NCBI GenBank assembly: GCA_951406725.2
Contig: OX597816.1
Span: forward strand, 172,980,001 to 173,044,000
DNA: 64,000 nucleotides
Source of the DNA: Octopus vulgaris
Lineage: Eukaryota
Reading direction: 5' to 3'
Of the stretch, positions 6,321 to 7,202 are shown piece by piece. The position numbers are program-made. Numbering within the stretch: the first letter of the stretch is position 1; each line of letters opens with the position of its first letter.

Positions 6321-6408
<88 letters not shown>

Positions 6409-7202
6409 GAAATGAGGTAATCAGAAGATCGGATGGTTCATATTTACAGATATTTATTTATATATTACATTTTTTTACATATATATCATATCACTTAGTT
6501 CATTAGCGCTTTCTCCCATTCTAGTGGGGTTTTCAAATGAAAATAAGTTCCTTTGCTGGGGATTTTAACCATTTTATAGTTTCTGGTCGTGGTGGGGAGG
6601 AATGTAAGACAGTACAAGAGGGTGAGGTGGATGAGGAGGAAGTGAGAAGTGAGAAGGGGAACATGTGTGTAAAATGATTAAAATCCCCAGCAAAGGAACT
6701 TATTTTCATTTGAAAACCCCACTAGAATGGAAGAAAGCGCCAATGAACTAAGTGATATGATATATATGTAAAAAAATGTAATATATAAATAAATAAATAT
6801 CTGTAAATACAAACCATCCGATCTTCTGATTACCTCATTTCCTCTAATATATAATATCTGTACATCATCTCCAAACCTTCCAATATATATATATATATAT
6901 ATATATACAGGCATAACTACAGATTTCTGCCACCCCCACCTCCGACTTTGGATGATCATAACTTATAGAAAAATGGATATTTTAAAATGAAATTCGCTAC
7001 AAATACACATCGGGCTATGTAGATTCCGAGAACAGAGGAATTTTTTTGGGGGGGGGAAACAATTTGGGGTTATTTTTGAGAACTGTTCCCCACTTGGGGG
7101 TGTTTCGGAACAAGTCGTCAAAATTTATTTCATTTTCTCCGTTTTGTGCGTTTGTGCATCCGTAGATTTCTACTACTCACATTTCATCGGCCTCAGTACG
7201 TA

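What the first reader, a model, noticed from the sequence alone, without database searches (positions are those of the whole stretch)
6401..6884. Fold-back element 1 defines a recurring layout: (TA)n, inverted arm, spacer, direct arm, extra tail, (TA)n
Seen: arms of about 177 bp, a 92-nt spacer and a tail of about 34 nt on one side only. The same asymmetric layout recurs in four sequence-unrelated elements (20151, 27463, 43636, 57614). Known: PLE insertions often carry an inverted partial pLTR at the 5' end and a 3' tail extension. Inference: these are products of a shared reverse-transcription/fold-back mechanism, not TIR MITEs. If transcribed they form long dsRNA, candidate substrates for ADAR or Dicer, which matters if the host is a heavily RNA-editing cephalopod.
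Basis: partly seen in the sequence, partly recalled or inferred. Interest (0 to 1): 0.72.

Follow-up and report, generated by a model that had tools for sequence, protein, structure and literature searches.

The report
Hairpin retroelement insertions in (TA)n repeats
The five hairpin-shaped repeats are real and are most likely double, head-to-head insertions of short Penelope-type retroelements into TA microsatellites, a layout already described for that transposon class, so this is an interesting but largely ordinary finding.

Summary
E1 has arms 6404-6576 and 6670-6846 (96.5% identical without gaps), a 93-nt spacer and a 37-nt tail, with (TA)37 on the left and (TA)12 on the right. Four mutually unrelated elements share the layout, always with the tail on the right. 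Spacers are 2-34 nt and tails 56-150 nt.

These are not one-off structures. Single-arm copies of the E1 and E5 families lie elsewhere in the window, at other (TA)n runs, with the same outer end and no tail. The E5 single copy continues past the fold-back centre, so the hairpin arose at insertion and is not the family's unit.

The E5 family carries a complete minimal type-I hammerhead ribozyme motif. My descriptor found only one other locus, just downstream of a Penelope-like (PLE) ORF. The window holds three PLE reverse-transcriptase remnants, one abutting (TA)n.

Published PLE traits match: (TA)n or microsatellite targeting, heavy 5' truncation, an adjacent inverted copy, a one-sided tail, and cleavage and priming on both strands.

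Best reading (about 0.6): PLE-type target-primed double insertions. It is well supported for E5 and rests on analogy for E1-E4. The ADAR/Dicer idea was not tested. The host genome was not available.

The parts
6329..6403 (.). (TA)37 run abutting the E1 left arm; presumed left half of the target microsatellite
6404..6576 (-). E1 inverted (left) arm, 173 nt. Its outer end TTAGAAGAAATGAGG joins (TA)n directly and it has no tail.
6577..6669 (.). E1 spacer, 93 nt, purine-rich on the + strand, not palindromic, with no other copy in the window
6670..6846 (+). E1 direct (right) arm, 177 nt
6847..6883 (+). E1 tail, 37 nt. It starts TATATAAT and is then AC-rich. It has no predicted structure (MFE 0).
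6884..6907 (.). (TA)12 run to the right of the E1 tail
27812..27996 (-). Single-arm copy of the E1 family. It is 86.5% identical to the left arm and 82.7% to the right arm. It has the same outer end at (TA)11, no tail, and (TA)7 at its inner end.
20153..20412 (+). E2: arms 20153-20236 / 20239-20322, 2-nt spacer, tail 20323-20412, lying between (TA)25 and (TA)15
27463..27788 (+). E3: arms 27463-27571 / 27580-27686, 8-nt spacer, tail 27687-27788 containing a 13-bp stem-loop (z = -2.8), lying between (TA)22 and (TA)11
43631..43961 (+). E4: arms 43631-43759 / 43778-43904, 18-nt spacer, tail 43905-43961. The left flank is (TA)12(CA)n..TATA and the right flank is (TA)17.
57611..57807 (-). E5 inverted (left) arm, 197 nt, abutting (TA)30. 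Its hammerhead core reads CCGA, i.e. U4 is changed to C.
57808..58039 (+). E5 spacer (57808-57841) plus direct arm (57842-58039). Together they are colinear with the single copy at 43240-43528, so this is the longer, sense copy.
57889..57981 (+). Predicted minimal type-I hammerhead in the E5 right arm. Helix I is 57889-57897 paired with 57972-57981. The core CUGAAGA is at 57898-57904. Helix II runs 57905-57959 (12 bp with one mismatch, G10.1-C11.1 kept). GAAA is at 57960-57963. The palindrome ACACGUGU is at 57963-57970 and H17 = A at 57971.
58040..58190 (+). E5 'tail' up to (TA)6. It contains an AC-rich stem-loop starting at 58052 (z = -2.8). How much of it belongs to the element is unknown.
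43240..43528 (+). Single copy of the E5 family (97.9% to the right arm and 96.8% to the left arm over 189 nt). It has an intact hammerhead motif at 43393-43469, ends at (TA)18 and has no tail. It lies in a (TA)-bounded island, 42786-43529.
44085..45572 (+). 5'- and 3'-truncated PLE RT remnant. Coding similarity spans 44125-45572. Its 5' end lies within 40 nt of the (TA)n run that follows E4.
7389..8985 (+). PLE remnant: RT and EN coding similarity at 7389-8727, then a minimal hammerhead at 8865-8905, with the family's 3' end at 8985, 85 nt after the predicted cut. It served as the in-window positive control.

Best explanation
Each fold-back is the footprint of one retrotransposition event of a short, probably non-autonomous, Penelope-type (PLE-mobilised) element into a (TA)n microsatellite.

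Proposed steps:
1. A PLE GIY-YIG endonuclease/RT complex cuts AT-rich DNA on both strands. Because (TA)n is its own reverse complement, both strands offer the same site and the same primer.
2. One 3'-OH primes a cDNA that starts at the distal end of the element RNA. This gives spacer + direct arm + tail.
3. The opposite strand acquires an inverted copy that starts at a proximal, TA-like site, so it has no tail. This copy comes either from a second priming event or from the first cDNA snapping back on itself.
4. Both copies are heavily 5'-truncated and are joined head to head, leaving a long hairpin-forming repeat with (TA)n on both sides.

What is shown here: the anatomy; the repeated-family nature of E1 and E5, with a fixed outer end and different inner ends; the hammerhead motif in E5; and PLE RT remnants in the window.

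What is inferred: that the mobilising enzyme is a PLE; that E1-E4 follow E5; that the tail is element RNA; and which of the two routes makes the second arm.
For: 1. Families, not unique DNA. Of the five elements, E1 and E5 have a further copy in the window.

2. Fixed outer end, different inner end. All three E5-family arms end at ..CACCAATAAT before TA repeats. The inverted arm stops at 57807, the direct copy runs 34 nt further, and the single copy continues at least 100 nt upstream, with two insertions. All three E1-family arms end at ..CTAA before (TA)n or the tail.

3. Hairpin made at insertion. The E5 spacer is colinear, in + sense, with the single copy. The right copy therefore holds more of the family than the left and cannot be a copy of it.

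4. Hammerhead. My descriptor required CUGANGA, helix II of at least 5 bp closed by G10.1-C11.1, GAAA, a palindromic helix III, H17, and helix I of at least 3 bp. It hit 3 places in 64 kb on both strands. These were 8865-8905, about 140 nt after the last PLE coding match (8727), and the E5 right arm and E5 single copy. It gave 0 hits in 200 first-order Markov simulations. The features match those given for PLE minimal hammerheads: a long helix II, G10.1-C11.1 and a palindromic 15.x-16.x segment (PMC4209133 passages). The motif's sense agrees with the sense deduced in point 3.

5. PLEs are present. RVT_1 hits lie at 7690-8376, 15036-15251(-) and 44101-45159. Homologues of the last carry RVT_1, PF28514 and PF26215, and one carries GIY-YIG PF01541. 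tblastn maps are. The 44125 copy has its truncated 5' end within 40 nt of a (TA)n run.

6. Short 5'-truncated PLE ends are common here. The hammerhead-bearing PLE family has two further fragments of 134 and 103 nt sharing the 3' end ..ATAGAACTGT, 85 nt after the predicted cut. From the positions that Frangieh et al. report relative to the ORF start, I derive RT start sites 85-92 nt after the cut.

7. Literature. Naiad PLEs target (TA)n, show strong 5' truncation, often carry an inverted 5'-truncated copy, and have a 30-40-bp tail at one end. A Poseidon PLE protein cleaves and extends both strands, and its tail is the stretch between two RT start sites.

8. Target hot spots. E3 and the E1 single copy share one TA tract. 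The E5 single copy, E4 and the PLE RT remnant share another.

9. Coupled arms. Spacers are small relative to arms. Under independent truncation points, Fisher P = 0.011 for a uniform model and 0.0012 for an exponential model.

10. Tail linked to the hairpin. 5 of 5 fold-backs have exactly one tail and 0 of 2 single copies have one.
Against: - E1-E4 have no CUGANGA...GAAA on either strand. They have no similarity to the PLE remnants or to each other and no Pfam hit among the ORFs scanned. Their PLE link is layout only.
- Rfam found no hammerhead anywhere, at gathering score over the whole window or by E-value scans of 6300-7000, 57800-58100 and 8780-9000. It also missed the control next to the PLE ORF, so the ribozyme call rests on my own descriptor and is not shown to cleave.
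- The fold of the E5 motif region is not more stable than shuffles (z = -0.23).
- Tails of E2-E5 are 56-150 nt, not 30-40. They share no structure: only 2 of 5 fold better than shuffles. No tail has a second copy in the window, so it is not shown that a tail is element sequence rather than flank or filler.
- Frangieh et al. report RT initiation without homology to the cut DNA, whereas here all five tail-less ends sit at 2-6 nt of TA-like microhomology.
- No pLTR or tandem arrangement is seen.
- In E1 a few nucleotides (TATAG) suggest that the spacer goes with the left arm, the opposite of E5.
- The three non-(TA)n PLE copies show no fold-back, but the numbers are too small to test this.
- The PLE families whose ORFs are in the window do not visibly end in (TA)n.
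Confidence: 0.6

Rival explanations
1. DNA-level fold-back repair or replication template switch at fragile (TA)n. A single element copy (spacer-arm-tail) already lay next to a (TA)n run. A break or a stalled fork in that run let the 3' end snap back on itself, copy the arm, and rejoin the (TA)n through TA microhomology.
For: The geometry fits exactly. The new arm abuts the long (TA)n run, and the loops are small (2-93 nt; coupling test P = 0.011). All five outer junctions of the inverted arm fall at 2-6 nt of TA-like microhomology within the arm-tail continuum. The E5 right copy is the longer one and could be the template. All five have the same orientation, as a single fork direction would give (two-sided P = 0.06).
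Against: Single copies in the window lack tails (0 of 2). Snap-back on typical copies should therefore give mostly symmetric, tail-less hairpins, yet 0 of 5 are symmetric. Of the 9 other complex (TA)-bounded islands checked, none has a non-microsatellite inverted repeat longer than 21 nt. That is, fold-backs are not a general property of sequence next to (TA)n. The one-sided tail with an inverted copy is a described PLE insertion signature.
Confidence: 0.17
2. The same double insertion, made by another retroelement machinery. For example, a microsatellite-targeting LINE of the R4/Dong kind could mobilise SINE-like RNAs, with the cDNA self-priming the second arm.
For: Fixed 3' ends and varied 5' ends fit any target-primed reverse transcription. 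Dong-R4 LINEs are listed among the recently active elements of Octopus vulgaris (PMC13282606 passages), if the host is an octopus. E1-E4 carry no PLE-specific mark.
Against: The E5 family carries a hammerhead, which the papers I read tie to PLEs and retrozymes. Both-strand cleavage and extension is contrasted there with R2 and L1, which nick and extend one strand. PLE passages describe the one-sided tail and the adjacent inverted copy as PLE traits not seen in LINE TPRT. None of the three RT remnants mapped in the window was a (TA)n-associated LINE; the RVT_1 fragment at 15036-15251(-) was left untyped.
Confidence: 0.12
3. TIR or fold-back DNA transposons (Stowaway-like MITEs) that insert at TA. 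The 'tails' would be neighbouring sequence.
For: Long terminal inverted repeats and TA on both sides are what a Tc1/mariner-type MITE shows. If the tail is not counted, E1, E2 and E5 can each be read with a TA on each side. Mariner and pogo remnants are present: HTH_48 at 32819-33031 and DDE_1 at 63313-63561.
Against: The extra family copies are single arms. One of them continues past the centre of the hairpin, and no partner arm exists anywhere in the window. In 5 of 5 the left junction has a long (TA)n run and the right junction has at most 3 TA units, which random insertion into a TA tract would not give. The five share no terminal motif, whereas a sixth fold-back in the window (16621-16886) has the symmetric CAGTG...CACTG ends of a classical MITE and is not in (TA)n. 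The E5 family has a sense-oriented ribozyme motif.
Confidence: 0.07
4. Assembly artefact: chimeric palindromic long reads at (TA)n runs.
For: Low-complexity (TA)n is error-prone, and fold-back chimeras are a known read artefact (my recollection, from no call).
Against: Arms differ by 1-7% in substitutions plus indels. The spacers are unique sequence. Arms are short (84-198 nt). The same families occur as single copies elsewhere in the window.
Confidence: 0.03

Closest known systems
Penelope-like element (PLE) insertion architecture, as described for Naiad, Neptune and Penelope/Poseidon (Craig et al. 2021, PMC8557442, passages; Frangieh et al. 2024, PMC11167929, main text)
   Same: Insertion into (TA)n; heavy 5' truncation; an inverted 5'-truncated copy joined head to head; an extension on one side only (37 nt in E1); and, in E5, a minimal type-I hammerhead in sense orientation.
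   Different: No ORF, no pLTR and no tandem arrangement. The units are only 260-580 nt. Tails of E2-E5 are 56-150 nt. E1-E4 have no ribozyme (Naiads also lack one). Tail-less ends sit at TA microhomology, whereas the in vitro study reports initiation without homology.
Metazoan non-LTR retrozymes (Cervera and de la Pena 2020, PMC7229834, passages)
   Same: Short (170-400 nt), low-GC, non-coding retroelements carrying a type-I hammerhead, proposed to be mobilised by PLEs. The E5 family fits this size and content.
   Different: Retrozymes are described as tandem repeats expressed as circular RNAs. E5 copies here are single or head-to-head inverted, not tandem. Expression was not tested.
Fold-back inverted duplications from snap-back synthesis during microhomology-mediated end joining or replication template switching (recalled, no paper read here)
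   Same: An inverted copy with a small loop next to a structure-prone repeat, and microhomology at the outer junction.
   Different: Here the duplicated DNA is the end of a mobile family with a defined terminus, and every case has a one-sided tail.
Stowaway-like / palindromic MITEs
   Same: Long inverted arms, small size, TA at the ends.
   Different: Asymmetric ends, single-arm copies, no shared terminal motif. Compare the CAGTG...CACTG fold-back at 16621-16886.

Membership tests
PLE-type insertion | Encodes, or shares sequence with, an element encoding a PLE RT plus GIY-YIG endonuclease | tested here: not met
   No Pfam hit in ORFs overlapping E1-E5 (I sent 147 of the 285 stop-to-stop ORFs of 70 aa or more, after an entropy filter). 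No BLAST similarity to the three PLE remnants. If these are PLE-related, they are non-autonomous or 3'-end fragments.
PLE-type insertion | Inverted 5'-truncated copy directly adjacent, forming an inverted repeat | tested here: met
   5 of 5 elements. For E5 the two copies have different 5' ends relative to the single copy.
PLE-type insertion | 30-40-bp tail at one end only | tested here: inconclusive
   The extension is one-sided in 5 of 5. Its length is 37 nt in E1 but 90, 101, 56 and 150 nt up to the next (TA) run in E2-E5. No second copy of any tail exists in the window to show that it is element sequence.
PLE-type insertion | Microsatellite / (TA)n target bias | tested here: met
   4 of 5 left arms abut a (TA)>=22 run and E4 abuts a (TA)(CA) composite. 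The right sides reach a run within 36-150 nt. Both single copies also abut (TA)n.
PLE-type insertion | Fixed 3' end with variable 5' truncation among copies | tested here: met
   Met for the E5 family (3 arms). For E1 (3 arms) the outer end is fixed but the inner ends nearly coincide. E2-E4 have no further copy in the window and could not be tested.
PLE-type insertion | Hammerhead ribozyme motif in the terminal repeat (canonical PLEs; absent in Naiads) | tested here: inconclusive
   Present in the E5 right arm and the E5 single copy by my descriptor, with 0 hits in 200 simulations. Absent from E1-E4. Rfam models detect none, not even the control. Cleavage was not tested.
PLE-type insertion | pLTRs / partial tandem arrangement | tested here: not met
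   No direct repeat of the arms flanks any of the five.
TIR MITE (Tc1/mariner-type) | All copies share both arms and the same internal sequence | tested here: not met
   The E1 and E5 families each have a single-arm copy, and the E5 single copy extends beyond the hairpin centre.
TIR MITE (Tc1/mariner-type) | Symmetric ends with a TA target-site duplication | tested here: inconclusive
   Ends are asymmetric if the tail is counted. A duplication cannot be discerned inside TA repeats. E3's right junction reads TG rather than TA.
Metazoan retrozyme | Type-I hammerhead within short tandem repeats, expressed as circular RNA | tested here: inconclusive
   The hammerhead motif is present in the E5 family. 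No tandem repeat is seen. Expression cannot be tested with these tools.
Snap-back DSB-repair duplication | The duplicated segment is local, otherwise unique sequence with an arbitrary boundary | tested here: not met
   In the two families with extra copies, the boundary equals the family's own terminus. TA microhomology at that point weakens this test.

The most novel reading that the evidence does not exclude
Because (TA)n is its own reverse complement, a PLE endonuclease/RT complex that cuts and primes on both strands would make head-to-head double insertions the rule at this target. (TA)n-targeting PLE parasites would then act as a genome-wide generator of long perfect hairpins. E1-E4 would represent an undescribed, ribozyme-less, SINE-like class of PLE-dependent elements. 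At 5 hairpins per 64 kb, they could supply a large share of the intronic or intergenic dsRNA that ADAR and Dicer see in this host.
Probability: 0.22. Interest if true: 0.6.

Novelty: new member of a known kind. Interest (0 to 1): 0.36.

Why it matters
If the reading is right, these loci are natural records of the least understood step of PLE retrotransposition: how both strands of the target are used and where reverse transcription starts. The inner junction, the tail-less end and the tailed end are all preserved side by side in short, alignable units.

They also show that much of what an inverted-repeat or MITE finder would call 'MITEs' beside TA microsatellites in such genomes may be retroelement footprints. 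That matters for repeat annotation.

The density, five 170-400-bp hairpins in 64 kb, makes them a plausible bulk source of dsRNA. This is not shown here.

Tried and rejected
- Rfam at gathering score on the whole window gave 0 matches. E-value scans of 6300-7000, 57800-58100 and 8780-9000 gave only microsatellite-like miRNA, snoRNA or CRISPR noise and no hammerhead, even at the control site. I therefore used a descriptor of my own.
- A loose regex (CTGANGA, 4-80 nt, GAAA) gave 15 hits in the window. Only the two E5-family hits fell inside the elements.
- A-to-G bias between arms. E1's 6 substitutions are all transitions, but in both directions (3 G/A, 3 T/C). Over all five elements the count is 12 transitions to 9 transversions. 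This gives no editing signature.
- A shared structure in the tails. Only E3 and E5 fold better than shuffles, so I rejected this as a common feature.
- Fold-backs in 9 other complex (TA)-bounded islands: none found.
- Linking arms to PLE 3' ends in the window: no similarity. The 3' end of the 44125 copy is missing.
- Host identity: the named homologues of the RT come from corals, a shark and a snail and are not informative. I did not pursue unnamed records.
- Not available or not used: no eukaryotic genome collection was on hand. Other copies of the five families, empty sites and raw reads therefore stayed unchecked.
- Supplements of PMC8557442, PMC11167929 and PMC4209133 were not opened. They may list cephalopod PLE families, insertion-site tables and hammerhead descriptors that bear on the assignment.
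- I made no claim that this layout is unpublished for cephalopods. My searches were not designed to establish that.
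Full report
**1. The observation**

The arms are 6404-6576 and 6670-6846, with 177 aligned columns at 94.35% identity, 93 nt apart (searches agree). Excluding one 4-nt indel, there are 167 matches and 6 substitutions, i.e. 96.5%. A 37-nt stretch (6847-6883) follows the right arm only. (TA)37 abuts the left arm and (TA)12 follows the tail. As RNA the unit would form a hairpin of about 175 bp (-260 kcal/mol, z = -30).

| Element | Arms | Spacer | Arm identity | Distance to next (TA)>=6 run |
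|---|---|---|---|---|
| E2 | 20153-20236 / 20239-20322 | 2 nt | 97.6% | 90 nt |
| E3 | 27463-27571 / 27580-27686 | 8 nt | 98.1% | 101 nt |
| E4 | 43631-43759 / 43778-43904 | 18 nt | 92.9% | 56 nt |
| E5 | 57611-57807 / 57842-58039 | 34 nt | 99.0% | 150 nt |

The five do not match each other. In all five the extension is on the right.

The link with (TA)n is far beyond chance. The window has 69 merged (TA)>=6 runs covering 3.7% of bases. A random position abuts a run within 2 nt with P = 0.0032, yet 4 of 5 left arms abut one directly (P about 5e-10). E4 abuts a (TA)12(CA)n..TATA composite. The right-hand distances give a combined P of 0.0023.

**2. They are copies of repeated families, and the hairpin is not the family unit**

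BLAST of the five units against the window found two further copies.

- **E1 family.** A copy at 27812-27996 is 86.5% identical to the left arm and 82.7% to the right arm. It is a single arm in the orientation of the left arm. It starts with the same TTAGAAGAAATGAGG directly after (TA)11 and ends in (TA)7 about 8 nt beyond the point where the E1 arms stop matching. It has no tail.
- **E5 family.** A copy at 43340-43528 is 97.9% identical to the right arm and 96.8% to the left arm. It is also a single arm, ends at ..CACCAATAAT before (TA)18, and has no tail. Upstream it runs colinearly through the E5 spacer in + sense and on for at least 100 nt, with two insertions. It lies in an island bounded by (TA)7 and (TA)18 (42786-43529).

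Three points follow.

- The outer ends are family-defined termini. The inner ends differ clearly in E5 and only slightly in E1.
- For E5 the right copy (spacer plus arm) holds more of the family than the left arm. It therefore cannot be a copy of the left arm.
- The family's own sequence is linear, not palindromic. The fold-back arose with or after insertion.

This is hard to reconcile with a TIR MITE. As a contrast, the window holds a sixth fold-back at 16621-16886. Its arms are about 130 nt at 83-86% identity with a 13-nt loop. It has symmetric CAGTG...CACTG ends, no tail and no flanking (TA)n, and it looks like a classical MITE.

**3. Link to Penelope-like elements**

Three degenerate PLE remnants lie in the window.

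- 7389-8727 (+).
- About 14642-13927 (-). A motif downstream that I read by eye as GIY-YIG-like appears.
- 44125-45572 (+).

The evidence is Pfam RVT_1 and tblastn with database homologues. The 353-aa frame at 44101-45159 has 613 homologues at E <= 1e-3. The listed ones carry RVT_1, PF28514 and PF26215, and one carries GIY-YIG PF01541. Two homologues I printed have a C-x4-C-x2-C stretch before a ..YIGETG.. motif at the C-terminus. By the wording in Craig et al., I read this as the Neptune/Nematis type. No tree was made. The 5'-truncated end of this copy lies within 40 nt of the (TA)n run that follows E4.

About 140 nt after the last coding match of the first remnant, I noticed a minimal hammerhead at 8865-8905. 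I then wrote a descriptor for it. It requires CUGANGA, an optional bulge, helix II of at least 5 bp closed by G10.1-C11.1, GAAA, a palindromic helix III, H17 not G, and helix I of at least 3 bp. It hits only three places in the window on both strands. These are that site, the E5 right arm (57898-57974) and the E5 single copy (43393-43469). It gave no hit in 200 first-order Markov simulations.

The full E5 motif spans 57889-57981.

- Helix I has 9 bp with one bulge.
- The core is CUGAAGA.
- Helix II has 12 bp with one mismatch.
- GAAA is followed by the palindrome ACACGUGU, and then H17 = A.

These traits are the ones Cervera and de la Pena list for PLE minimal hammerheads thought to act as dimers (passages). 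In the E5 left arm the core reads CCGA. The ribozyme's sense is the sense deduced independently from the single copy.

Two caveats apply. Rfam models see none of these sites, not even the control. The local fold is not unusually stable (z = -0.23). The motif is therefore a well-matched prediction, not a shown activity. E1-E4 have no such core on either strand.

The hammerhead-bearing PLE family gives a useful internal yardstick. Two further fragments, 1165-1298 (-) of 134 nt and 52361-52463 (+) of 103 nt, share its 3' end ..ATAGAACTGT. They then diverge into AT-rich flanks. That end lies 85 nt after the predicted cut. Frangieh et al. place the cut 26 nt, and the RT start sites 111-118 nt, after the ORF start, from which I derive 85-92 nt after the cut.

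So very short 5'-truncated PLE ends are common in this window. In E5 the tail-less ends lie 62-68 nt after the predicted cut. The 85-92-nt position falls in the AC-rich 5' half of a stem-loop in the tail, which starts at 58052. This is a suggestive parallel, no more.

**4. What the literature says**

- **Craig et al. 2021** (passages). PLE insertions are strongly 5'-truncated and often have an inverted 5'-truncated copy adjacent. They often carry a 30-40-bp tail at one end only. Naiads prefer (TA)n and lack canonical hammerheads. The CX2-5CxxC linker was proposed to mediate the microsatellite bias of Neptune.
- **Frangieh et al. 2024** (main text). The purified Poseidon protein cuts AT-rich DNA and extends both strands, unlike R2 and L1. 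Reverse transcription starts at two adjacent internal sites, and the optional tail is the stretch between them.
- **Cervera and de la Pena 2020** (passages). Metazoan retrozymes are 170-400-nt non-autonomous elements with type-I hammerheads. PLEs are the candidate mobilisers.

**5. Most likely mechanism**

A PLE-type complex nicks both strands of a (TA)n tract. The tract is self-complementary, so both strands offer the same site and primer.

- One priming event starts distally and gives spacer, arm and tail.
- The other strand gains an inverted copy that starts at a proximal TA-like site and so lacks the tail.
- The two 5'-truncated copies are joined head to head.

Two further observations bear on this.

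- **Coupled lengths.** Spacers are small relative to arms (2/84, 8/107, 18/127, 34/197, 93/173). If the truncation points were independent, Fisher P would be 0.011 under a uniform model or 0.0012 under an exponential model. The lengths of the two copies are therefore coupled. Synchronous synthesis on both strands, a template jump, or a snap-back of the first cDNA would each explain this, and the window cannot separate them.
- **Tail linked to the hairpin.** 5 of 5 fold-backs have exactly one tail and 0 of 2 single copies have one. This ties the tail to the event that makes the hairpin. It argues, weakly because the numbers are small, against a later DNA-level fold-back on an ordinary copy.

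Several insertions share a tract. E3 and the E1 single copy share one. The E5 single copy, E4 and the PLE RT remnant share another. This is what a target-specific element would produce.

**6. Rivals**

- **DNA-level snap-back at fragile (TA)n.** This has the right geometry and the right microhomology: 2-6 nt of TA-like sequence at all five tail-less junctions. It remains the main alternative, at about 0.17. Against it are the tail argument above and the lack of fold-backs in 9 other complex (TA)-bounded islands.
- **Another retroelement machinery.** Not excluded for E1-E4, at about 0.12.
- **MITE.** About 0.07.
- **Assembly artefact.** About 0.03. The arms differ by 1-7%.

**7. What stayed open**

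- No genome of the host or of relatives could be searched. Copy numbers, full-length partners, empty sites and read support are unknown.
- The host was not identified.
- The ADAR/Dicer suggestion is untested. Arm differences show no one-directional A-to-G pattern.

**8. Verdict**

- These are new members of a known kind, namely PLE-type complex insertions in (TA)n. Interest is moderate.

Noticed in passing
2788-3240, 10395-10806, 17122-17549 (+); 50212-49804, 47141-46726, 21221-20746 (-); partial body 58204-58383: A tRNA-derived SINE of about 400 bp with a head of about 170 nt carrying box A/B-like sequence. An internal (TA)n/(CA)n microsatellite varies from 6 to 23 TA units between copies, followed by a body of about 230 nt. 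It supplies several of the window's (TA)n runs.
   Followed up: partly
8865-8905 (+), with 1165-1298 (-) and 52361-52463 (+): A minimal hammerhead about 140 nt after the last coding match of a PLE remnant. Three copies of this terminal region share a 3' end 85 nt after the predicted cut, within the 85-92 nt I derive from the positions reported for an Anolis PLE. Rfam models do not detect it.
   Followed up: partly
46136-46215: A perfect 80-nt palindrome (two 40-nt arms, no spacer, 100% complementary). It is not flanked by (TA)n and lies about 560 nt after the end of the 44125-45572 PLE remnant. Its origin is unknown.
   Followed up: no
16621-16886: A sixth fold-back: arms of about 130 nt at 83-86% identity, a 13-nt loop and symmetric CAGTG...CACTG ends. 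It is not in (TA)n and has no tail. It looks like a classical TIR MITE and serves as a contrast to E1-E5.
   Followed up: partly
33847-35284; also 11175-11310, 36669-36903, 51878-52111; inverted pair 51932-52052 / 52184-52304: A satellite with a 184-bp unit (7.7 tandem copies), with scattered single units and one inverted pair.
   Followed up: no
47728-49576, 1547-2381, 4224-4927, 59677-60121: Very long microsatellite arrays: (TACA)463, (ACAT)211, (ATC)235 and (AGA)148. The window is unusually rich in simple repeats of many kinds.
   Followed up: no
32819-33031 (+), 63313-63561 (+): Remnants of DNA transposases: a Mos1-type HTH_48 domain and a DDE_1 (pogo/Tigger-like) domain.
   Followed up: no
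E1-E5 (6404, 20153, 27463, 43631, 57611): All five fold-backs have the same orientation, with the tail on the right (two-sided P = 0.06). SINE copies are 3 plus and 3 minus. This could be chance, selection within a transcription unit, or a replication-direction effect.
   Followed up: partly
14642-13700 (-), 15036-15251 (-): A third PLE remnant on the minus strand. Its reading frame shows C..C and ..KLIYVGFT.., which I read by eye as a GIY-YIG-like motif. The neighbouring RVT_1 fragment at 15036-15251 was not typed.
   Followed up: no
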